DNA from: Chloroflexota bacterium
Lineage (GTDB): Bacteria > Chloroflexota > Dehalococcoidia > Lucifugimonadales > GCA-002723415
NCBI GenBank assembly: GCA_002723415.1
Contig: PBOA01000009.1
Span: forward strand, 23,258 to 87,257
Length of the DNA stretch: 64,000 nucleotides
Reading direction: 5' to 3'
This document shows positions 3,534 through 44,751 of the stretch, one piece after another. Each line of letters starts with the position of its first letter. The stretch's first letter is position 1. A program made the translations under genes and the position numbers. The notes beneath the pieces are model-generated. The model was not told the origin of the DNA. It saw only the letters and a program-made list of their open reading frames with translations, and did not search any database.

Positions 3534-4668
3534 ACCTTCAATATTGGCACTTGAAGACGGAACTATATTTAATGGTGTTTCATATGGAAGTACTAAATCT
3601 ATTTCAGGTGAAGTAGTATTCAACACATCAATGGCTGGATATCAAGAAATTCTTACTGACCCATCTTATGCAGGGCAAATTGTAGTTTTAACTTATCCAT
3701 TAATTGGTAATTACGGCATAAACATATCTGATTTTGAATCTTCAAAAGTCCAAGTAGCTGGATTTATTGTTAAAGAACATTGTAAATACCCAAGTAGCTC
3801 TAAACCAATGTCATCTTTTGATGATTTTTTAACTAAACAAAATATATCTGGAATCATGGGGTTAGACACCAGAGCTCTTACAAAGAAAATAAGAACATAT
3901 GGTGCAATGAAGGGAATGATTTCAACAAAAAAATCTGTTCCAGGAATACTCGAAAATTTACAAAACTCTGCAAATTATAATGAAATAAATTTTGTAGATC
4001 ATGTCACTACTAATGATTCTTTCGTCTGGAACTCAAAATTCAATCGCCCGGAGCCTTCAACTTCTTTTAAAAATGAACCTGGTAAAAATAAAATTGCAGT
4101 TTTAGATTATGGAATAAAATATAACATTTTACGCATCCTAGAAAATTTAAATTGTACAACTTTAACTTTACCTGCAAACACATCCTCTAATGACGTTCTA
4201 AGCCTAAAACCTGATGGAATTTTGTTATCCCCTGGACCTGGTGACCCTGAACTCTTAACAAGGCCGATCGATAACGTAAAAAAATTGATTGGAAAAGTCC
4301 CGATAATGGGAATATGTCTTGGCAACCAAATTTTAGCAAAAGCATTTGGTGGAAAAACTTATAAACTCAAATTTGGGCACCATGGAGCCAACCATCCTGT
4401 AAAAAATTTATCAACAGGTGAAGTATATGTTACCTCTCAAAACCATGGATATTCTGTAGACCCAGAATCTCTCCCTTCTGAATTAGAAGTAAGTTATATA
4501 AACTTAAATGATAACACCGTAGAGGGGTTGCGCCATAATTCATTGCCCATATTAAGCGTTCAATATCATTCAGAAGGAGCTCCTGGTCCTGAGGAAAATT
4601 CATACATATTTAATGAATTTATAAACTTAGTTAATAATTATAATAACAAGGAGAATAATAATCAGTAA
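3526..4668 (+). CDS. carA: Carbamoyl-phosphate synthase small subunit
   Basis: LALEDGT, GEVVFNT, GICLG, QYHSE; ATG 3526 (after AAAGGA) preferred over ORF-track 3508. Confidence 0.97.
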   Translation: MIKPSILALEDGTIFNGVSYGSTKSISGEVVFNTSMAGYQEILTDPSYAGQIVVLTYPLIGNYGINISDFESSKVQVAGFIVKEHCKYPSSSKPMSSFDDFLTKQNISGIMGLDTRALTKKIRTYGAMKGMISTKKSVPGILENLQNSANYNEINFVDHVTTNDSFVWNSKFNRPEPSTSFKNEPGKNKIAVLDYGIKYNILRILENLNCTTLTLPANTSSNDVLSLKPDGILLSPGPGDPELLTRPIDNVKKLIGKVPIMGICLGNQILAKAFGGKTYKLKFGHHGANHPVKNLSTGEVYVTSQNHGYSVDPESLPSELEVSYINLNDNTVEGLRHNSLPILSVQYHSEGAPGPEENSYIFNEFINLVNNYNNKENNNQ

Positions 4669-7600
4669 TTTATTAAAAACGAAGCTAAAAAAAGTAATGG
4701 TTATTGGTTCAGGCCCAATAATAATTGGGCAAGCTGCAGAATTTGATTATGCAGGAACACAAGCATGCAAGTCTTTGCGAGAAGAAGGAATTTTTACAAT
4801 TTTAATAAATTCTAATCCTGCAACTATCATGACTGATAAAGATATTGCAGACACCATATATATAGAGCCCTTAACAGTTGAAGTTATTACAAGAATAATT
4901 GAAAAAGAACAACCTGATGGAATTTTGCCAACACTAGGAGGACAAACTGCATTAAACCTAGCAGTAAAACTTCATGATGAAGGAATATTAAAAAAATATA
5001 ATGTGGCTCTTCTAGGTACGCCTGTCGAAACAATCAAAAATTCAGAAGATAGAGATCTTTTCAGATCTCTTTTAATTAAAATAAATGAACCCGTCCTTCC
5101 AAGTCAAATTGTTTCAACAGTTGAAGAAGCAAACAAAGTAGCTCTAGATATCGGAATGCCATTAATCGTTAGGCCTGCATATACATTAGGTGGTACTGGA
5201 GGAGGAATAGTCAATAATATAAACTCTCTAAAAAGCACAGTTCAAAACGGACTAAATGCAAGCCCAATTAACCAGGTACTACTTGAAAGGTACCTGAAAG
5301 GATGGAAAGAAGTTGAATATGAAGTTATTAGAGACTCTAATAACAATTGTATAACCGTATGCAATATGGAAAATTTTGACCCTATGGGCGTACACACTGG
5401 AGATAGTATTGTTGTTGCTCCATCACAAACACTCACTGATAAAGAATACCAAATGCTAAGATCAGCAAGCATAAAAATCATTAGAGAATTAAATATTCAA
5501 GGAGGATGCAATGTTCAATTTGCTTTACACCCAGGAGAAATCATTAGAAAATCTCTAGACAAAAATGAAGAAGAAAGCCCTTATTATGTTATTGAAGTAA
5601 ACCCGCGTGTTAGCAGAAGCTCAGCTTTAGCTAGTAAAGCTACAGGATACCCTATTGCGAGAGTGGCTGCAAAAATAGCCATAGGTAAAACTTTAGATGA
5701 AATAAAAAACCAAGTTACAGGCCAAACCTCTGCTGCATTTGAACCAGCCTTAGATTATTGCGTAGTAAAAATTCCTAGGTTCCCATTTGATAAATTTCCT
5801 GAAGCTGATCGCACAATTGGAACTCAAATGAAAGCAACCGGTGAAGTCATGGCAATAGGAAGATCTTTTGAGTCAGCTATTCAAAAAGCTATAAGATCAT
5901 TAGAAATTCCTGGAGCTTCTTTATTGTGGGAAGATCAAGACTGGCACACTCTTAATAATAAAGAAATATTAGCTCTTTTATCAAAGAATGTTTCTGACAA
6001 AAGATTGTGGTTAGTTATTACAGCATTAAGAAGAGGTATATCGCCTAAAGATGTATCTATAAAAACAGGAATAGACCCCTGGTTTACTTTCTCAATATCA
6101 AATATTATTAAAGCTGAAAAAACGATCACCTCTTCTGTTATTGATAAAGAATTATTGAAAAACATAAAATCTTTAGGATTCTCTGATAAAGATATATCAA
6201 TTTTAAAAAATGTGCCTCAATCTGATATTCGTAAACTTAGAACTAAATGGAATATATTTCCAACATATAAAATGGTAGACACCTGCGCTGCTGAATTTCC
6301 TGCACAAACTCCTTATTTTTATAGCACCTATGAAGAAGAAAATGAAGCCTTCCCATTAGAAAAGAGAAAAGCTTTAGTTATTGGTAGTGGTCCCATTAGA
6401 ATTGGGCAAGGAATAGAATTTGATTATTGCTCTGTACATGCAGCTTGGAGTTTTCAAAATAATGATATTGCAAGCATTATGGTCAATTCTAACCCTGAAA
6501 CCGTTTCTACTGACTTTGACACCTCTTCTAGGTTATATTTCGAACCACTAGATGAAGAAAGCATACAAGATATAATTAATCTTGAATCTGCAAATCTCAC
6601 AGACTCTACTTCTGTCTCTACAGTTGTGCAGTTTGGAGGACAAACTGCAATTAATTTATCTCAGCCTTTAAATGAATCAAAATTGCCTATTTTAGGGACC
6701 TCAGCAGAGTCCACTAACATAGCCTCTGACAGAGATTCATTTGAAAAATTTTTAAAATCTACTAACATTCCCAGTCCTCCTGGATACTCCATTTATACAA
6801 CTGAAGAAGCAGTATCTGCAGCAAAAAAAATTGGATACCCTGTTGTTGTAAGGCCTAGTTATGTATTAGGCGGAAGAGCAATGAAAATTATTTATGAAGA
6901 AAAATACCTAAAAAAATATATGAAGCAAATAATAGGATCAATTGAAAATAACAAAATCTTAATTGATAAATATATATACGGAAAAGAAATAGAAGTTGAC
7001 GCAGTAAGTGATGGGGAAAATGTATTAATACCAGGCATAATGGAGCACATAGAAAAAGCAGGAGTTCATAGTGGAGATTCTATAGCCGTATATCCCACAG
7101 TATCAATTTCTCAGGATGAGATTGATACAATTGTAGAATATACAACATTAATAGGAAAAAAATTAAAAATTACTGGATTAATGAATATCCAATATGTAAT
7201 TTATAAGCCTAATCCAAATGAGCCTTCAATAATATATATTATCGAAGTAAATCCAAGGTCTAGTCGTACAATTCCTTTTATATCCAAAGTAACTAATATT
7301 CCTATGGTAAAAATTGCTATTGAAAACATGCTTGGAAAAACTTTAAAAGATCTTGGCCTTACCCCAGGATTACAAAAAGCCTCCAATACTTTTGCAGTAA
7401 AAGCACCTGTGTTTTCGATGTCAAAACTTATAGGAGTAGATACAGAACTTGGACCTGAAATGAAGTCAACTGGAGAAGTTATGGGTATTGACTATGATCT
7501 TAAATTTGCTTTAAAAAAAGCAATGATTTCTGCAGGATTAACTATACCAGAAAAAGGTTCAATCTTATTAAGTGTTGCAGATAAAGACAAAGAAGAAGCA

Positions 7601-7957
7601 ATATCAATTTTTACAACTCTTCACTCTATTGGATATCATCTTTATGCTACAGACGGAACAGCATCATTAATTAAATCACTTGGAATACCTGTGACAACTA
7701 TTTCTAGACGGCTAGACAGAGAACATCCAAATGTATTAGACGTAATACTTAATAACACAGTTGATGCTGTAATAAATACAGTTACCGGTTCACGAGATGT
7801 ATTAATGGACGGTTTTTATATAAGGAGAGCCGCTGTTGACAAAAAAATTCCTTGTTTTACATCTATAGACACTGCTAAGGCTGCTATTGATGCACTAAGC
7901 AATACCTCAGAATATAGTATTAAACCTTTAAATAAATATTTAAATAAATACCCATAA
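4661..7957 (+). CDS. carB: Carbamoyl-phosphate synthase large subunit (start uncertain: ATA 4658 / ATC 4661, or ATG 4697)
   Basis: VIGSGPIIIGQAAEFDY, two ATP-grasp IEVNPR motifs, C-terminal MGS domain; frame open from 4631 with AAGGAG at 4648-4653. Confidence 0.95.
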   Translation: MSNLLKTKLKKVMVIGSGPIIIGQAAEFDYAGTQACKSLREEGIFTILINSNPATIMTDKDIADTIYIEPLTVEVITRIIEKEQPDGILPTLGGQTALNLAVKLHDEGILKKYNVALLGTPVETIKNSEDRDLFRSLLIKINEPVLPSQIVSTVEEANKVALDIGMPLIVRPAYTLGGTGGGIVNNINSLKSTVQNGLNASPINQVLLERYLKGWKEVEYEVIRDSNNNCITVCNMENFDPMGVHTGDSIVVAPSQTLTDKEYQMLRSASIKIIRELNIQGGCNVQFALHPGEIIRKSLDKNEEESPYYVIEVNPRVSRSSALASKATGYPIARVAAKIAIGKTLDEIKNQVTGQTSAAFEPALDYCVVKIPRFPFDKFPEADRTIGTQMKATGEVMAIGRSFESAIQKAIRSLEIPGASLLWEDQDWHTLNNKEILALLSKNVSDKRLWLVITALRRGISPKDVSIKTGIDPWFTFSISNIIKAEKTITSSVIDKELLKNIKSLGFSDKDISILKNVPQSDIRKLRTKWNIFPTYKMVDTCAAEFPAQTPYFYSTYEEENEAFPLEKRKALVIGSGPIRIGQGIEFDYCSVHAAWSFQNNDIASIMVNSNPETVSTDFDTSSRLYFEPLDEESIQDIINLESANLTDSTSVSTVVQFGGQTAINLSQPLNESKLPILGTSAESTNIASDRDSFEKFLKSTNIPSPPGYSIYTTEEAVSAAKKIGYPVVVRPSYVLGGRAMKIIYEEKYLKKYMKQIIGSIENNKILIDKYIYGKEIEVDAVSDGENVLIPGIMEHIEKAGVHSGDSIAVYPTVSISQDEIDTIVEYTTLIGKKLKITGLMNIQYVIYKPNPNEPSIIYIIEVNPRSSRTIPFISKVTNIPMVKIAIENMLGKTLKDLGLTPGLQKASNTFAVKAPVFSMSKLIGVDTELGPEMKSTGEVMGIDYDLKFALKKAMISAGLTIPEKGSILLSVADKDKEEAISIFTTLHSIGYHLYATDGTASLIKSLGIPVTTISRRLDREHPNVLDVILNNTVDAVINTVTGSRDVLMDGFYIRRAAVDKKIPCFTSIDTAKAAIDALSNTSEYSIKPLNKYLNKYP

Positions 7958-26375: not shown

Positions 26376-27065
26376 TTAGATTAAGGGCCAAGGGACGTTA
26401 TAATAAGGGTTAAGGTGAGGCACGTAAGGGTTTTTAATTAGAATGTTTAATCGATTTATCAGAGCTTGATATTCTATGTCTGAAATAAAGGAATTTATAT
26501 TATCAGATATAGAATGCCTTTGATTTAATTGTTCTAAAAAAATGATTAAATCGTTAATGATATCTTTAGGGATTTTTTTCCCTTCGAAATCAAAAATTAC
26601 CGTTCGAACTTTAAAAATATGATGAAAGGTAAGGCCGTGGTCAATACTCCATAAAATATCATTATAATCTAGTAAAAAATGACCTCCTTTTCTGTCAGCA
26701 TTATTAACTATAATATCAAAAATTGCTATTTTTAATAAATCATCAGGAAATCTATTTAGTAATGTAAAATAATTTTCTTGTTTTTTATACTTTACAAGTT
26801 TTTGGACTGATCCTATTCCGTGAGGACCTTCATAAATTAATGTTTCTGGTATGTTTGGCCAACCTAATGTTTGGCTAACCAAATATGCTGCAAATTCTCT
26901 TTTATATAAAGTTCCAGGTGAAAAATCTATTAATGGTTTTTCTCCTAATTTAGGCTTATATATTGATTCAATTAAATTGTTATCTAAGTCACAAATAGTT
27001 GCGTGAAAAACTTTATTAGATCCAGTAAGAATTGGATTTGAAATTAAAAGATCATTTATTTTCAT
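26376..27065 (-). CDS. SCO1664-family PI3/PI4-kinase-like protein
   Basis: YKPKLGEKPLIDF, REFAAY, GSVQ, FDIIVNNADRKGGH, IDHGLTF, PWPL; family recognised from memory. Confidence 0.85.
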   Translation of the reverse strand: MKINDLLISNPILTGSNKVFHATICDLDNNLIESIYKPKLGEKPLIDFSPGTLYKREFAAYLVSQTLGWPNIPETLIYEGPHGIGSVQKLVKYKKQENYFTLLNRFPDDLLKIAIFDIIVNNADRKGGHFLLDYNDILWSIDHGLTFHHIFKVRTVIFDFEGKKIPKDIINDLIIFLEQLNQRHSISDNINSFISDIEYQALINRLNILIKNPYVPHLNPYYNVPWPLI

Positions 27066-27087
27066 ATTACTCCATGAATCAGATCAT

Positions 27088-27603
27088 TTATGTTTCAAAT
27101 TGTAGGTCTTCTTTATTTATGTGTCCATTAGTTCTCGGGCAATTATGTCCTTCAGGGTTTATAGCTTCTCCACAGAGAGGGCAAAGGGGCCTGCCAGCTG
27201 CACATACCTTTAAAGCGTCTGAAGCAAAAATTTTGATTTTTTCAGAAGATGTATATATTTGTAAAGTGGGAGTATTTTTTGAGGCAGAATCATAAATATC
27301 AAAAACGAATAATTTTGATAAAGGGTCTTTTTTTACTTCTAGCCGGATTAATTTAATATCTAATATAAATTTTTCATTATTTTTTAAATCCTTTTCCAAA
27401 ATGTCGTTGCTTAAATCTTTATCATTTGCTGACAACTCTTGAATGATCAAAGACAGTTGAACTAGCTGTTCTTTTTCTAGCCTTATTGTTGCCTTGCCTT
27501 CGTTTCCTTCAGCTAATATGTAGAAAGTTCTATTACCTGGTTTTCCTTCAGAGAAAGGCTGGAAAGATCTAAGGTTGGTTAATTTATTAATTGATTCACT
27601 CAT
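27088..27603 (-). CDS. DUF3090-family protein with C-terminal Cys/His motif
   Basis: GKPGNRTFY, LEKEQL, AAGRPLCPLCGEAINPEGHNCPRTNGH; adjacent to the SCO1664 gene. Confidence 0.85.
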   Translation of the reverse strand: MSESINKLTNLRSFQPFSEGKPGNRTFYILAEGNEGKATIRLEKEQLVQLSLIIQELSANDKDLSNDILEKDLKNNEKFILDIKLIRLEVKKDPLSKLFVFDIYDSASKNTPTLQIYTSSEKIKIFASDALKVCAAGRPLCPLCGEAINPEGHNCPRTNGHINKEDLQFET

Positions 27604-27694: not shown

Positions 27695-28453
27695 CTATTT
27701 TCCAGTGTTTAAAAGTATTGAAGAAGCTATATATCCAGCTCCAAACCCGTTATCTATGTTAACTACGCTTACTCCTGGAGAACAAGAATTTAACATACTT
27801 AATAGGGCTGCTATTCCATTAAAGCTGGATCCATAACCTACGCTAGTTGGAACAGCGATTATCGGCACGCTTACTAAGCCTGAAACTACTGAAGGCAAGG
27901 CTCCGTCCATCCCTGCAGTAACTATTATAACTTTTGCTTTTTGTATACTTTTAATTTGAGAAAAAAGCCTATGTAATCCTGCAACTCCAACATCAAAAAG
28001 GTGTTCTACTGTACAACCCATTGATTCTGCAGTAATAATAGCTTCTTTAGCTACAGGTATATCTGATGTTCCAGCTGCTAGAACCATAATTCCTGGAGTT
28101 TTATTTTTTAAATTATTAAGTTTGTTTACAAATATGATTTTTGAAATTTCATCGAATTTTGCATCACTGTAAAATTTTTTAATTTCTAAAAATGTTTCTA
28201 AGTTCGACCTAGTTATTAAAAGATCTTTAGATTGTGAAAGAATAGATTTTGCAATTGTAACAACTTGTTCTTTTGTCTTGCCTTCAGCATAAATTACTTC
28301 AGGAAACCCTTTTCTAATTGCTCTGTGGTGATCTATTTTTGCAAAATCTATGTCTTCGAAAGGAAGAAAGCTGAGCTTATCGATTATTTCGTCAATCCCA
28401 ATTTTTTCTTCTTTATATTGATTTAATAAACTTATTAAAATATCTTTATTTAT
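27695..28453 (-). CDS. larB: LarB-family nickel-pincer nucleotide biosynthesis protein (extended 5' of the ORF track; ATA start)
   Basis: LPFEDIDFAKIDHHR...GFPEVIYAEGKT upstream of the ORF-track start; AAGTSD, DVGVAGLHR, AGMDGAL, PTSVGYG, VNIDNGFGA; AAGGAG + 6 nt + ATA at 28453. Confidence 0.9.
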   Translation of the reverse strand: MNKDILISLLNQYKEEKIGIDEIIDKLSFLPFEDIDFAKIDHHRAIRKGFPEVIYAEGKTKEQVVTIAKSILSQSKDLLITRSNLETFLEIKKFYSDAKFDEISKIIFVNKLNNLKNKTPGIMVLAAGTSDIPVAKEAIITAESMGCTVEHLFDVGVAGLHRLFSQIKSIQKAKVIIVTAGMDGALPSVVSGLVSVPIIAVPTSVGYGSSFNGIAALLSMLNSCSPGVSVVNIDNGFGAGYIASSILLNTGK

Positions 28454-28482
28454 CTTATTCTCCTTATTTTTGATTAAGAATT

Positions 28483-29403
28483 TTATGATATCAAATCTAA
28501 TTTTTTTAACAAACTAGGAATCATGCTTTCTTCTTCTTGGGTTAAGCTTTTCAAAGGCCGGGATACGGTTTTATGTTTAATTACTCCCAAGAGTTTTAAC
28601 GCAGCCTTAATTCCTGAAAATGTGGAAGCTGAAGAACTGCGTCCTGTTGAAAAAGAAAGGATTTTTTGTGCTATAGCAATTTTAGAATTAGCTTCGTGAA
28701 TTTCTTTAGAGTTGTTTTTTTCTCCAGAATCCCAGCCGGAAGAACAAATTGCAGGAATCAAATTTGCTATGCCTGGAATTGCACCGTGTATGTTTAGGTT
28801 TGAAGTTGATGTAATTCTATAAGTCGTTCCAATAAACCTAAGCAAGGATAATGATTTAGATTTACACAAATAATTTAATTGAGCAAGGTTTTCACCGTGT
28901 CCGGAAGAATCTTTAACTCCTTCTATTAAATTTTCTTCAGATAAATTTGCAATGGTTGAAGGGCTAACTGTAGATTTAACATTTTGAGGAATATTGTATA
29001 CCCATATATTTTGGCCAAGTTGGGAAGAAATATGCCTATAATGGTCTAATATTTCTTCTTGTGAACAGTCATAGTAATAAGGAGGAGTGCAGGCTAATCC
29101 ATCTAAGTTAAGGTTTTGTATATATTTACCTAGATTTATAGATGTTTTAGTGCTGGCACATGATATGTTTGCTATTATTGGTACTTTGTTGTTGACTTCT
29201 GAACAAACTGTTTCTATGGATTCAATTCTAGTCTTTTCGTCCAAATTTGCGAATTCCCCAGTTGTTCCTGAAACCCATAATCCGTGTACGCCATTGTCTA
29301 AAAGATACCGAACTAATGATTTTAAAGAATCTTTATCTAAAGTTTCGTCTGGATTTAAGGGGGTAATGATTGGGACTACTATTCCTTGCATGTTTTTTAT
29401 CAT
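28483..29403 (-). CDS. DapA/NAL-family class I aldolase (probably not a true DHDPS)
   Basis: GTTGEF, YNIP, Schiff-base GVKDSSG; lacks the DHDPS Arg after YNxP. Confidence 0.85.
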   Translation of the reverse strand: MIKNMQGIVVPIITPLNPDETLDKDSLKSLVRYLLDNGVHGLWVSGTTGEFANLDEKTRIESIETVCSEVNNKVPIIANISCASTKTSINLGKYIQNLNLDGLACTPPYYYDCSQEEILDHYRHISSQLGQNIWVYNIPQNVKSTVSPSTIANLSEENLIEGVKDSSGHGENLAQLNYLCKSKSLSLLRFIGTTYRITSTSNLNIHGAIPGIANLIPAICSSGWDSGEKNNSKEIHEANSKIAIAQKILSFSTGRSSSASTFSGIKAALKLLGVIKHKTVSRPLKSLTQEEESMIPSLLKKLDLIS

Positions 29404-41996: not shown

Positions 41997-43454
41997 TCAC
42001 TTAATATTTCGAGATATCTTAATTAATAGTTGCTTTTTTGTTAAATCATTAGTTTTATATAATTCTGATATTCTATAACCTACAACCCAGGCAATATTAT
42101 TTCCACAAAGAATTAGAGGTATAGAGTCTCTAATTCTTTGTGGAATTTTTAAATTGGTCATAAAGTCTTGTAATTTTTGGTTGTTTTTCATTCCTAGTGG
42201 TTGAAAACGATCACCTGAAATCCTTGTTCTTACATATATATTTTGCTTTTTTTCAGAACAATCCAATCCAATAGAGTATTCAATTTTACCTAATTGTTTG
42301 TTTTGAGTTTCTCTAAATATATATTTGTCTTTCTGGTTTGTGTATTCAGTTTCAATGGTCCAGTCTTTTAACATCGTTTTGCCGGGTGTTTGAACAATAT
42401 ATTTTTTATTAATATAGGGAAATTTATCACTATCAGTTTTGTTTTTAAAAATTTGACATATTTCGTAATCAACATAAAAAATCCAGCCATTTTTTAAATT
42501 TAAATATTGGCCAGGTTTCGAATTTATTATTTTAATCATAGGTTCTATATGATTAAAATATATATTAGAGGATTCTCCAGTTATCTTAGATATTAATTTA
42601 ATTAGTATTTTTCTTTGTATAGCATAATCTAATGCTTGGAAATCCTTTTTTTTAATATAAGCTGTATGATTTTTAATTTCTGTAGTTTTATTTAAATATT
42701 TATTTGTTTCCTTGTTTATATAATTAATATCTGAGGAGGCTATTTCAGAAAGTCTTTTTATAGATTTATTAATTGAGGGATTAAAATTTTTTTGTAAAAA
42801 AGGGATTAAGTCTAATCTAATTTTATTTCTTGTGAAATAATTAGAATAATTTGTAGAATCTTCTTGAAATTCAATATTATTTTTTAAACAATAATTTGAA
42901 TTTTCTAAATGTGTAAAGTGCAATAATGGACGAAAAATTTTGATAGAATTATAAGGACTTTTTTGATTACTCATAGGCTTCATGCCTGATAATCCTTCAA
43001 GCCCAGTGCCTCTTATTATATTCATCAATATTGTCTCTATGTTGTCATTAAAATTATGCCCTAATGCTATAGATTTTGCTCCAATCTGATTAGCAACAGA
43101 ATTTAGAAATTTATATCTGAATTCGCGCAAAATATTTTCATTAATAGTTGATTTATGTAGAGTTGATTTATCCAATTCTCCAATTGTAATAGGGAGGTTT
43201 AACTTACTTGCAAGTTTATTTACAAATTTAACATCATTTAGTGACTCAAGTTTTCTTTGATTATGATTAAAATGAGCAATATGTAAAGTTAGATCGAATT
43301 TGTCCTTAATTGAATATAATGAATGTAGCATTGCTGTGGAATCAGGTCCTCCTGATAAAGCAATAACTATTACCTTACCTAGGGATTCATAATATTTGGT
43401 TATATTTTCTGTTACTGATGTATTAATTTTATAAATAATTTTATCTTTATTCAT
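41997..43454 (-). CDS. tilS: tRNA(Ile)-lysidine synthetase
   Basis: ALSGGPDS, HFNH, GHNFND, RPLL, RNKIR, C-terminal GDRF/KKLQD-type domain. Confidence 0.95.
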   Translation of the reverse strand: MNKDKIIYKINTSVTENITKYYESLGKVIVIALSGGPDSTAMLHSLYSIKDKFDLTLHIAHFNHNQRKLESLNDVKFVNKLASKLNLPITIGELDKSTLHKSTINENILREFRYKFLNSVANQIGAKSIALGHNFNDNIETILMNIIRGTGLEGLSGMKPMSNQKSPYNSIKIFRPLLHFTHLENSNYCLKNNIEFQEDSTNYSNYFTRNKIRLDLIPFLQKNFNPSINKSIKRLSEIASSDINYINKETNKYLNKTTEIKNHTAYIKKKDFQALDYAIQRKILIKLISKITGESSNIYFNHIEPMIKIINSKPGQYLNLKNGWIFYVDYEICQIFKNKTDSDKFPYINKKYIVQTPGKTMLKDWTIETEYTNQKDKYIFRETQNKQLGKIEYSIGLDCSEKKQNIYVRTRISGDRFQPLGMKNNQKLQDFMTNLKIPQRIRDSIPLILCGNNIAWVVGYRISELYKTNDLTKKQLLIKISRNIK

Positions 43455-43470
43455 AATTTTTTAAATAAAT

Positions 43471-44751
43471 CTAGTTTAATTTTTCATACTTATAAATTTT
43501 TGATTTAGAGATTTGTAATGTTTCAATTTTTAGATTTTTCATTGTTATTATTTCAATTTTTAAGTTTTTATAACTTAGTTGTTGGCCTTCATTTGGGATT
43601 TTACCTAATATATTTAATACAAATCCAGCTACAGTTTCATAATCGCCTTCAGGTAAAGATATTTTCATTTGTTCATTGGCTTCTTCTAAGCTTATACCTC
43701 CATCAACCTGAAATGTATTTTTATCTATTGTTTCAACTTCTTCTTCTGGTCCATGGCCCTCTTCTCCTACAGGCCCCATTACTTCTTCAACTAATTCTTT
43801 TAAACTAACTAAACCTGCTATGCCTCCAAATTCATCTATTGCAATTGCAATTTGATTTCCAGTTTGACGTAATTCATTGAAAAGCTCAGCTATTCTTTTT
43901 GTTTCTGGAACAAAAAATACATCTCTAATAGAATCAGTTACAGATTCTTCAAGATTTATACTTTTGTTAGCCATTGCTTTTAGTATGTCTTTTGTTGAAA
44001 TAATTCCAATTATATTATCAACAGATTCTTTAAATATAGGAAATCTTGTATGTGGGTAACTTTTATATACTGATAAAAATTTATTTAGAGTTGTACCTCT
44101 CTTAATTGAAATTATTTCAGTTCTAGGCGTCATTACTTCTCTAACTTGTCTATCTCCAAATCGAAATACATTTTCAAGCATTTCAGCTTCACTTGACTCA
44201 AAAGTTCCTTCAGCTTCCCCTATATCTATTAAAGTTCGCAATTCTCCTTCAGTGATTGATATATTTGAAACACTACCAAAAAATGATCCTATATGCTTAC
44301 TTAACCAATGTAAAATTGTAACAATAGGCTTAAATGCCCATTGGGTTAATATTAATGGGTTTGCATAAATAAAGGCTATTTTTTCAGAATGTCTTAAGGC
44401 TAATGATTTTGGAATAGTTTCACCAAATACTAAAAGGCATATTGTTCCTAATAAAGTGGCAATAATAACACCAAATGCTTCACCTATTTTATCTACTATA
44501 ATTGCGGTTACTATTGCCGCAAACGCAACGTTGACAAGGTTGTTTGCAAGTAAAATTGTAAATAGTAAGTTTTCGGGAGTTTGAATCATTTTTGAAACTT
44601 TAATAGCGGAAAGGTGGCCTGTTGAAGCTAAATGGGAAATTCTAGACTTTTGTAGAGATAGATATGCTGCTTCAGCACTTGAGAAAAATGCTGAAAGAAA
44701 AATACAAAATATTGATAAAGATATTAATCCCCATGTTTCATTTCCTGACAT
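43471..44751 (-). CDS. CNNM/CorC (hemolysin-family) transporter: DUF21 + CBS pair + CorC_HlyC
   Basis: FFSSAEAA, GETIPKS, VMTPR, HTRFP, IDEFGG, YETVAGF. Confidence 0.92.
   Translation of the reverse strand: MSGNETWGLISLSIFCIFLSAFFSSAEAAYLSLQKSRISHLASTGHLSAIKVSKMIQTPENLLFTILLANNLVNVAFAAIVTAIIVDKIGEAFGVIIATLLGTICLLVFGETIPKSLALRHSEKIAFIYANPLILTQWAFKPIVTILHWLSKHIGSFFGSVSNISITEGELRTLIDIGEAEGTFESSEAEMLENVFRFGDRQVREVMTPRTEIISIKRGTTLNKFLSVYKSYPHTRFPIFKESVDNIIGIISTKDILKAMANKSINLEESVTDSIRDVFFVPETKRIAELFNELRQTGNQIAIAIDEFGGIAGLVSLKELVEEVMGPVGEEGHGPEEEVETIDKNTFQVDGGISLEEANEQMKISLPEGDYETVAGFVLNILGKIPNEGQQLSYKNLKIEIITMKNLKIETLQISKSKIYKYEKLN

What the first reader, a model, noticed from the sequence alone, without database searches (positions are those of the whole stretch)
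28400..28470. larB begins with AUA behind a textbook Shine-Dalgarno
Seen: AAGGAG (28465-28460), 6 nt, then ATA AAT AAA GAT ATT TTA = (M)NKDILISLLNQYKEEKIGIDEIIDKLSFLPFEDIDFAKIDHHR, a typical LarB N-terminus. There is no ATG/GTG/TTG in frame from the upstream TAG to 28087, 122 codons later. With moaA (AUU), carB (AUA/AUC) and many TTG starts (NUDIX, MTase, rpsU, IMPase 2, purM, PurM-like, nuoA, nuoK), this suggests relaxed start-codon discrimination in this lineage (inference), which gene callers would systematically miss.
Basis: partly seen in the sequence, partly recalled or inferred. Interest (0 to 1): 0.75.

Follow-up and report, generated by a model that had tools for sequence, protein, structure and literature searches.

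The report
Conserved AUA/AUC start of larB
The nickel-cofactor gene larB in this marine Dehalococcoidia genome really does start at the weak codon AUA behind a strong ribosome-binding site, and the same AUA/AUC start is kept in about four fifths of larB genes across the whole bacterial class but nowhere else, which suggests a deliberately weak start like the one known for the initiation-factor gene infC.

Summary
larB (27695-28453, minus strand) has AAGGAG, 6 nt, then ATA, and no in-frame ATG/GTG/TTG for 122 codons. Four independent public assemblies carry the same ATA, so it is not a sequencing error.

The ATA is not a quirk of this lineage. The aligned first codon of larB is ATA or ATC (rarely ATT) in 125 of 148 genomes of the same order and in 54 of 80 from other orders of class Dehalococcoidia. 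It is ATG/GTG/TTG in 20 of 20 other Chloroflexota, and no ATH start is needed in 66 loci from other phyla. A 5-mer Shine-Dalgarno motif lies 4-9 nt upstream in 74% of the ATH loci. Most ATG-start larB genes in the class have none. In the same relatives infC is 28/28 ATH, while moaA, argB, carB, surE and larC are not.

Separately, this genome has at least 15 homology-verified non-canonical starts (about 0.9% of genes, mostly ATT). The three tested in relatives (moaA, argB, carB) are not shared. IF3, the ATC start of infC and the relatives' initiator tRNA all look canonical, so relaxed discrimination is unproven.

Best reading: a selected, IF3-sensitive weak start that keeps the NaAD-consuming enzyme LarB at a low level.

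The parts
27695..28453 (-). larB coding sequence (252 codons plus TAG stop) read from the ATA start
   Evidence: NCBIfam LarB NF033503 scores 291 bits (cut-off 175) and Pfam AIRC matches residues 122-247. The protein is collinear with 19 orthologues.
28451..28453 (-). ATA initiation codon of larB
   Evidence: Read directly. The same aligned codon is ATA/ATC/ATT in 179 of 228 Dehalococcoidia larB genes. The ATA is identical in four independent assemblies.
28460..28465 (-). Shine-Dalgarno AAGGAG, 6 nt upstream of the ATA
   Evidence: Read. The modal spacer among orthologues is 6-7 nt.
28514..28516 (-). In-frame TAG that closes the larB frame upstream, 20 codons before the ATA; no canonical start lies between them
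28085..28087 (-). First in-frame ATG, 122 codons downstream. It is the start used by ab initio callers and gives a truncated 130-aa product.
28483..29403 (-). Upstream DHDPS-family (dapA-like) gene. Its TAA stop lies 29 nt before the larB ATA.
4658..7957 (+). carB. AAGGAG at 4648-4653 is followed by in-frame ATA 4658 and ATC 4661. The first ATG (4697) falls inside the conserved first beta-strand.
   Evidence: Relatives start canonically 8-12 codons before 'kvlvigsgp'.
16713..17729 (-). moaA with a probable ATT start at 17729-17727. The CxxxCxxC radical-SAM motif precedes the first ATG.
   Evidence: TIGR02666 model position 2 aligns to residue 12 of the open frame. The 89%-identical orthologue in G015 has ATG at exactly the aligned codon.

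Best explanation
larB is translated from AUA 28453-28451, selected by the AAGGAG 6 nt upstream and, by inference, decoded by initiator tRNA.

This is an ancient, gene-specific trait of class Dehalococcoidia. About 79% of larB genes sampled across the class keep AUA or AUC (rarely AUU) at the homologous first codon, nearly always behind a strong, well-spaced SD. In the rest of Chloroflexota and in other phyla the same position is AUG/GUG/UUG.

The most likely function is a deliberately weak start that IF3 discriminates against. It would hold LarB at a low level and could tie LarB synthesis to IF3 availability, as at infC. LarB irreversibly carboxylates and hydrolyses NaAD, the last precursor of NAD. 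The strong SD would compensate enough for the weak codon to be used at all.

Shown here: the codon, the SD, conservation across the class, absence outside it, specificity against five control genes, and the parallel with infC. Inferred: Met initiation at AUA, low efficiency, IF3 dependence, and the NaAD-sparing rationale.

Separately, this AT-rich, streamlined genome has accumulated at least 14 further non-canonical starts, mostly AUU. Apart from infC (ATH in all 28 relatives) and surE (CTG, shared with two), those tested are not shared with relatives. This is best read as tolerated AT-biased drift, not as proof of a relaxed machinery.
For: Sequence and family assignment.

Not an error: four independent assemblies carry the ATA.

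Census of the aligned first codon:
- Own order: 125 ATH of 148 (ATC 69, ATA 52-53, ATT 3), in 37 of 41 families.
- Other orders of the class: 54 ATH of 80.
- Other classes of the phylum: 0 of 20.
- 66 loci from other phyla: none needs an ATH start.

SD evidence: a 5-mer SD lies 4-9 nt upstream in 133 of 179 ATH loci, against 0-9% at shifted offsets. The spacer mode is 6-7 nt, and 69 of 125 loci have a full GGAGG. Within the class the counts are ATH with SD 151, ATH without SD 27, canonical with SD 5, canonical without SD 34.

The site is not frozen. There are at least 31 changes among ATA/ATC/ATT on a rough tree, and both ATA and ATC occur inside 8 families. ATT is under-used relative to internal Ile codons.

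Controls in the same relatives: infC is 28/28 ATH (ATA 20, ATC 6, ATT 2). moaA, argB, carB, surE and larC show no ATH pattern.

Literature: AUA/AUC/AUU initiate at 1-2% of AUG in E. coli, where only infC and pcnB are confirmed (10.1101/063800). infC AUU/AUC is the target of IF3 autoregulation (PMC5499595). The LarB reaction on NaAD is described in PMC11796402.
Against: - There is no expression, proteomic or ribosome-profiling evidence. The initiating residue and the efficiency are both inferred.
- About 18 switches between ATH and canonical starts occur on the rough tree, and about 20% of class members use ATG. The weak start is therefore dispensable in some lineages.
- The link between ATH and SD is strong only in raw counts. 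The phylogenetically independent test had 6 usable pairs (3-4 in the expected direction, none opposite, p about 0.25).
- No published evidence that LarB overproduction is harmful was found.
- In one E. coli in vitro system, AUA mRNA with an optimised leader behaved like AUG (abstract of PMC5499595). AUA need not be weak in every context.
Confidence: 0.62

Rival explanations
1. Lineage-wide relaxed start-codon discrimination. The translation machinery of this lineage accepts AUH/CUG more readily, and larB is just one of many affected genes.
For: At least 15 homology-verified non-canonical starts occur in 1746 genes of this genome. TTG makes up 21% of SD-backed first canonical starts. CTG starts appear at surE in 3 of 24 genomes and at larC in 3-4 of 20 genomes of the order.
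Against: The larB ATH is conserved across a whole class, while moaA, argB and carB start canonically in 27-28 relatives each. infC keeps an ATH start in 28/28 relatives and in this genome, which only makes sense if IF3 still discriminates. IF3 is full length with both domains. The canonical initiator anticodon arm GGGCTCATAACCC is present in 23 of 30 relatives. SD-preceded ATH codons in gene leaders are barely above control codons genome-wide.
Confidence: 0.2
2. Neutral founder effect. An ATG-to-ATA/ATC change became fixed once in the Dehalococcoidia ancestor. It is merely tolerated because very little LarB is needed, and it has no regulatory role.
For: The trait maps to a single clade. Reversions to ATG occur repeatedly, about 18 switches on the rough tree. 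LarB makes a cofactor that is needed in trace amounts (general knowledge).
Against: Protein identity between families is about 50%, so unconstrained third positions should be randomised. Yet G stays at about 20% and T at about 3%, while A and C interchange at least 31 times. A strong SD is maintained at 74-85% of ATH loci and is absent from most ATG loci. The codon spectrum matches that of the regulated gene infC.
Confidence: 0.15
3. The true start is elsewhere, either a downstream canonical codon (giving a truncated LarB) or an upstream codon, or the ATA is an assembly error.
For: Ab initio callers choose ATG 28087. Some orthologues have a TTG or GTG 5-12 codons downstream.
Against: Starting at ATG 28087 removes about 80 positions of the LarB model. 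In 62 of 125 ATH loci no canonical codon occurs in the downstream stretch examined (at least about 13 codons), and in 100 of 125 none occurs in the open codons upstream. The SD is positioned for the ATH codon. Proteins from other phyla begin with Met at exactly this column. Four independent assemblies agree on the ATA.
Confidence: 0.03

Closest known systems
infC (IF3) AUU/AUC start and translational autoregulation
   Same: Both have a conserved AUH initiation codon at a specific gene, behind an SD. In these very genomes infC shows the same ATA/ATC-over-ATT spectrum. The mechanism proposed for larB, discrimination by IF3, is the one established for infC (PMC5499595).
   Different: larB encodes a metabolic enzyme, not the discriminating factor, so any IF3 dependence would be feed-forward control and not autoregulation. 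The larB trait is restricted to one class, whereas infC's is near-universal. No experiment exists for larB.
pcnB (poly(A) polymerase I) AUU start in E. coli
   Same: A non-canonical AUH start on a gene outside the translation apparatus. It is one of only two confirmed cases in E. coli (10.1101/063800). From my own knowledge, it is usually interpreted as keeping a potentially harmful enzyme scarce.
   Different: The pcnB start alternates among AUG/GUG/UUG across phyla (10.1101/063800). The larB AUH is conserved across some 70 families of a class and is paired with a strong SD.
Phylogenetically conserved weak canonical starts (cyaA UUG, hupB/tufA GUG in Gammaproteobacteria)
   Same: A gene-specific, clade-wide conserved non-AUG start interpreted as regulatory (PMC5499595, section 23).
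   Different: Those genes use codons that IF3 accepts as canonical (UUG/GUG). larB uses AUA/AUC, which IF3 rejects in E. coli.
Lineages with generally broadened start-codon sets (Mycoplasma/Spiroplasma, NCBI table 4; mitochondria)
   Same: ATA/ATT/ATC are used as starts, and this genome is AT-rich with an elevated share of such starts.
   Different: The share here is about 1%, not a general re-coding. The relatives' initiator tRNA keeps three G:C pairs and infC keeps its AUH. The larB trait also occurs in genomes of 60-73% GC.

Membership tests
LarB (nickel-pincer nucleotide cofactor biosynthesis carboxylase/hydrolase, NF033503) | Whole-protein score above the curated NCBIfam cut-off | tested here: met
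   291.1 bits against a cut-off of 175; model positions 1-207 of 209 are covered.
LarB (nickel-pincer nucleotide cofactor biosynthesis carboxylase/hydrolase, NF033503) | PurE-like (AIRC) core preceded by an N-terminal extension of about 120 residues | tested here: met
   Pfam AIRC matches residues 122-247. The extension aligns over its full length with 19 orthologues.
LarB (nickel-pincer nucleotide cofactor biosynthesis carboxylase/hydrolase, NF033503) | Conserved active-site residues, including the Cys of the MLNSC motif | tested here: met
   C224 and the flanking residues L218, M220, G227 and VVNIDNG are invariant in alignment A1. The assignment of this Cys as catalytic rests on the literature cited in PMC11796402 (its ref. 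4) and was not re-derived here.
LarB (nickel-pincer nucleotide cofactor biosynthesis carboxylase/hydrolase, NF033503) | Partner genes of the pathway present in the genome | tested here: inconclusive
   LarC (PF01969) is present in the window's genome at contig C5:91063-92196, E = 5.6e-116. LarE and LarA-type client enzymes were not searched.
Genes with a conserved IF3-discriminated AUH start (infC type) | AUH at the codon homologous to the initiator Met of orthologues | tested here: met
   The column is ATG/GTG/TTG in 20 of 20 other Chloroflexota, and no ATH start is needed at 66 loci of other phyla. It is ATH in 179 of 228 Dehalococcoidia.
Genes with a conserved IF3-discriminated AUH start (infC type) | SD at functional spacing in front of the AUH | tested here: met
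   133 of 179 loci have a 5-mer SD, with a modal spacer of 6-7 nt, against 0-9% at shifted offsets.
Genes with a conserved IF3-discriminated AUH start (infC type) | Gene specificity: other genes of the same genomes start canonically | tested here: met
   moaA, argB, carB, surE and larC show no ATH pattern, while infC is 28/28 ATH.
Genes with a conserved IF3-discriminated AUH start (infC type) | Translation responds to IF3 level, and the N-terminal residue is Met | not testable with these tools
   This needs reporter assays or N-terminomics.
Lineage with relaxed start-codon discrimination | Raised genome-wide share of non-canonical starts | tested here: met
   At least 15 of 1746 genes are verified by homology. 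This is a lower bound, because only cases with 20 or more codons to the first canonical start are detectable.
Lineage with relaxed start-codon discrimination | The same non-canonical starts shared with related genomes | tested here: not met
   moaA, argB and carB are canonical in 27-28 relatives each. Only the surE CTG is shared, with G014 and one other genome. No genome of the same family or genus was available.
Lineage with relaxed start-codon discrimination | Altered initiator tRNA anticodon stem (loss of the three G:C pairs) | tested here: inconclusive
   The initiator tRNA is absent from this 37-contig assembly. The canonical arm is present in 23 of 30 relatives.
Lineage with relaxed start-codon discrimination | Altered or missing IF3 | tested here: not met
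   IF3 is full length, scores 160 bits against two solved bacterial IF3 chains (PDB 5me0_Y and 5lmn_X) over both domains, and keeps the FRGRE segment. infC itself starts at ATC. Individual discrimination residues were not mapped rigorously.

The most novel reading that the evidence does not exclude
Dehalococcoidia use AUA/AUC plus a strong SD as a dedicated regulated class of start codon. Under this reading larB is a second member, beside infC, of an IF3-sensed regulon. Diversion of NaAD into the nickel-pincer cofactor would then be throttled according to the state of the translation apparatus or the growth rate. This would be a class-wide, roughly 70-family-deep example of start-codon-encoded metabolic control.
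Probability: 0.3. Interest if true: 0.75.

Novelty: new member of a known kind. Interest (0 to 1): 0.6.

Why it matters
Only a handful of bacterial genes are known to keep a non-canonical AUH start on purpose; in E. coli the confirmed cases are infC and pcnB. A metabolic gene that keeps AUA/AUC across an entire class, in genomes of 31-73% GC and always paired with a strong SD, is a clean natural test case. It bears on how start-codon strength and SD strength are traded against each other, and on whether IF3 discrimination is used for regulation beyond infC.

There is also a practical consequence. Ab initio gene callers truncate or mis-start this gene: the exact 130-aa fragment from this species sits on at least 20 public contigs. 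Surveys of LarB and the nickel-pincer pathway in Dehalococcoidia and SAR202 that rely on such calls may therefore be biased. The census also yields a simple rule for curators: in this class, look for an SD followed by ATA/ATC followed by GAC/GAA.

Tried and rejected
I used exact-protein look-up and four independent assemblies instead.
- Initiator tRNA of this genome: ARAGORN found only two CAU tRNAs with elongator-type features (a paired acceptor end, one presumably tRNA-Ile2). Pattern searches found no initiator. This feature is therefore untestable in this assembly, and I used relatives instead.
- argB in relatives: the N-termini vary in length, with purine-rich stretches and out-of-frame ATGs. 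No clear start could be assigned in several genomes, so I drew only the conclusion that there is no ATH pattern.
- Genome-wide enrichment of SD-to-ATH in leaders: barely above control codons (ATC 5.9%, ATT 4.3%, ATA 3.4%, against AAT 4.9% and AAA 4.2%). This statistic is too noisy to count ATH starts, so homology-verified cases were used instead.
- Many long-leader candidates from my crude gene finder were AT-rich non-coding leaders in front of a normal ATG. They were discarded.
- Rfam: no family matches the larB leaders of 14 loci; only neighbouring tRNAs were hit. A riboswitch explanation was dropped.
- Translational coupling as a requirement: rejected. The upstream same-strand ORF ends anywhere from an ATAG overlap to more than 200 nt away, and 9 of 48 loci have none within 300 nt.
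- Phylogenetically independent test of ATH against SD: underpowered, with 6 usable pairs.
- Literature searches for larB together with start-codon terms, and for Dehalococcoidia together with non-canonical starts, found nothing relevant.

Full report
**The observation.** On the minus strand the window reads ...AAAAATAAGGAGAATAAG ATA AAT AAA GAT ATT TTA.... AAGGAG lies at 28465-28460, followed by a 6-nt spacer and ATA at 28453-28451. The frame is closed upstream by TAG at 28516-28514. It contains no ATG, GTG or TTG until the ATG at 28087, 122 codons after the ATA. Read from the ATA, the 252-residue product scores 291 bits on NCBIfam LarB (cut-off 175). The model starts at residue 40, so a start at the first ATG would delete about 80 model positions. 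The four other in-frame ATH codons in the open leader all lie upstream of the SD.

**Not an error.** An exact look-up showed that the truncated 130-aa product is called on at least 20 contigs from JGI, ENA, Tara, Logan and NCBI. The 252-aa Met-initiated protein is present in NCBI nr from a 96,939-nt contig, which is the length of the window's own contig. Four independent assemblies of the same population (three Tara/ENA assemblies and GCA_902578945.1) carry AAGGAGAATAAGATA. They have 0-2 mismatches over 1467 nt, and one has an indel in the A-run upstream of the SD. So the ATA is real. Ab initio callers miss it, and NCBI's pipeline already annotates it for this genome.

**Comparative census.** No genome of the same genus or family is held; the nearest relatives are of the same order. 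Record titles of the closest loci read Dehalococcoidia, SAR202 or Chloroflexi.

I located the codon aligned to the window's first residue in every larB found:

| Group sampled | ATH at first codon | Detail |
|---|---|---|
| Own order (250 genomes, 161 with larB, 148 read) | 125 of 148 | ATC 69, ATA 52-53, ATT 3; 23 canonical; ATH in 37 of 41 families |
| Other orders of the class | 54 of 80 | ATC 41, ATA 10, ATT 3 |
| Other classes of the phylum | 0 of 20 | ATG 15, GTG 3, TTG 2 |
| Other phyla (66 named loci) | none needs ATH | The protein begins with Met at this same column (MDE.../MNE...) |

The trait spans loci of 31% to 73% GC. It is therefore not an AT-bias artefact.

**The ATH codon is the one the ribosome-binding site points to.** In the order, 119 of 125 ATH loci have an SD-like motif. 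Sixty-nine of them have a full GGAGG, and the spacer mode is 6-7 nt. Across all 179 ATH loci, a 5-mer SD lies 4-9 nt upstream in 74%. The figure is 0-9% when the same test is applied 15-90 nt away in either direction. In 100 of 125 order loci no canonical codon exists in the open codons upstream. In 62 none follows in the downstream stretch examined, at least about 13 codons.

Class members whose larB starts with ATG mostly lack an SD. The counts within the class are ATH with SD 151, ATH without SD 27, canonical with SD 5, and canonical without SD 34. This looks like compensation between codon strength and SD strength. However, the phylogenetically independent contrast had only six usable pairs. 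Three to four went in the expected direction and none the opposite way, which is not significant.

**The site evolves but avoids G and T.** I built a rough tree from 245 N-terminal fragments with the first codon excluded. On it the start codon changes at least 31 times among ATA, ATC and ATT, and about 18 times between ATH and canonical. Eight families contain both ATA and ATC. ATT is strongly under-represented relative to internal Ile codons of the same genes. In loci below 55% GC it is 3 of 32 at position 1, against 173 of 439 internally (p = 0.0005). In loci above 55% GC it is 1 of 93. These counts are not phylogenetically independent. The tree is short and approximate, so the event numbers are rough.

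**Controls in the same relatives.**
- Positive control: infC is ATH in 28 of 28 (ATA 20, ATC 6, ATT 2), behind an SD. This is the same ATA/ATC-over-ATT spectrum as larB.
- moaA is canonical in 28 relatives. The 89%-identical orthologue in G015 has ATG exactly where the window has ATT.
- argB shows no ATH pattern.
- carB is canonical in 27-28 relatives.
- surE uses TTG/ATG/GTG, with CTG in only three genomes including this one.
- larC, from the same pathway, uses ATG/GTG/TTG, with CTG in 3-4 of 20 and ATH in none.

The 79-84% ATH at larB is therefore gene-specific.

**This genome as a whole.** I built a crude gene set of 1746 stop-to-stop genes scored by codon usage. It gave 53 genes whose coding signal starts 20 or more codons before the first canonical start. 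Profile searches confirmed that the family model begins upstream of the first ATG/GTG/TTG in these genes:
- infC (ATC)
- moaA (ATT)
- argB (ATT)
- surE (CTG)
- truA
- a MogA/MoaB-type gene
- an OppB-like permease (two copies)
- an ABC ATPase, whose Walker A motif precedes the first ATG
- a threonine-aldolase-like gene
- a GT4 glycosyltransferase
- a Usp gene
- tsaE

With larB and carB this makes 15 genes, or 0.9%. This is a lower bound, because a chance canonical codon near the true start hides other cases. Most of the sporadic starts appear to be ATT. TTG accounts for 91 of 439 SD-backed first canonical starts. For comparison, annotated starts in model bacteria sum to 99.95% ATG+GTG+TTG, and E. 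coli has two confirmed AUU starts (10.1101/063800).

**Is discrimination relaxed?** I found no positive evidence for it.
- IF3 is full length and aligns over both domains with two solved bacterial IF3 chains (PDB 5me0_Y, 5lmn_X) at about 160 bits.
- infC keeps a non-canonical start here and in all relatives.
- The canonical initiator anticodon arm with three G:C pairs is present in 23 of 30 relatives, against 1 hit for the reversed control pattern.
- This genome's own initiator tRNA is missing from the 37-contig assembly, so it could not be inspected.

The sporadic ATT starts are best read as tolerated products of AT-biased drift in a streamlined genome of 1.86 Mb and 31% GC. This is an inference.

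[quoted passage not shown] It therefore irreversibly drains the immediate precursor of NAD to make a trace cofactor. In E. coli, AUA, AUC and AUU initiate at 1-2% of AUG (10.1101/063800). An older test gave 5-7.5%, and the AUU/AUC of infC is the target of IF3 repression (PMC5499595).

I therefore propose that Dehalococcoidia keep larB on a weak start that IF3 discriminates against. A strong SD would make that start usable. The arrangement would set a low LarB level and could make LarB synthesis sensitive to IF3 availability. The context is not fixed. In 8 of 48 loci the stop of the upstream gene overlaps the start as ATAG. In others the gap exceeds 100 nt. No Rfam element is present. Everything beyond the sequence pattern is inference.

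**Caveats.**
- One E. coli in vitro study found that AUA with an optimised leader behaved like AUG (abstract of PMC5499595).
- About a fifth of the class has reverted to ATG.
- No report of LarB toxicity was found.

**Novelty.** Full-text searches found nothing on larB start codons or on non-canonical starts in Dehalococcoidia. The single-gene call already exists in NCBI's annotation. The class-wide conservation, the SD pairing and the parallel with infC appear to be undescribed. I file this as a new member of a known kind: genes with a conserved AUH start, such as infC and pcnB.

Noticed in passing
L474, L477, L481 (and possibly L480), at the codon four (L480: six) positions before the conserved Y/F-F/L motif of LarC: larC in 3-4 of 20 same-order genomes has CTG where the others have ATG/GTG/TTG. 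CTG therefore seems to be an occasional start codon in this order. surE also has CTG, in this genome, in G014 and in one more.
   Followed up: partly
L002, L003, L010, L015, L016, L166, L180, L186 at the larB start: The stop codon of the upstream same-strand ORF overlaps the larB start as A-TAG (ATAG). This is an AUA analogue of the familiar ATGA start/stop overlap and suggests translational coupling in these genomes.
   Followed up: partly
L023 (CBDURB010000298.1, 'uncultured bacterium'), aligned first codon of larB: ACG sits at the aligned start position, 6 nt behind AGGAGG, with no canonical codon nearby. This is a possible ACG start in a Dehalococcoidia-like larB.
   Followed up: no
genome.fa contig C16, minus strand, 0-based offsets 42479-43535 (outside the window): prfB (RF2) shows the usual pattern of an N-terminal piece in another frame. 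It is the classical programmed +1 frameshift and not a non-canonical start.
   Followed up: no
whole assembly G000: No initiator tRNA was found. ARAGORN reports 41 tRNAs, with only two CAU tRNAs, both elongator-like. This is probably an assembly gap in a 37-contig MAG.
   Followed up: partly
window 26376-27603 (- strand): Directly downstream of larB lie a DUF3090/TIGR03847 gene and an SCO1664-family (TIGR03843) gene. This is a conserved hypothetical pair. The same synteny with the DHDPS-family gene and larB is seen in all four independent Tara/NCBI contigs.
   Followed up: no
window 28483-29403 (- strand): The dapA-like gene upstream of larB scores below the equivalog cut-offs for dapA (138 against 206) and for nanA. 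It is a DHDPS-family aldolase/lyase of unassigned specificity.
   Followed up: no
L189-L192, L194, L202, L228 (family f55) and family f25 loci: The larB genes of the order that start with ATG cluster in a few families. They lack any SD-like motif within about 20 nt upstream, unlike their ATH-start relatives.
   Followed up: partly
L131 (G015:C23) against window moaA: moaA of G015 is 89% identical to the window's, while argB of the same pair is only 46% identical. This suggests either a recent transfer of the moa region or very uneven divergence.
   Followed up: no
genome.fa contig C17 (outside the window): Several ORFs on this contig contain many ambiguous bases, which translate as X. Start-codon inferences there were discarded.
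   Followed up: no
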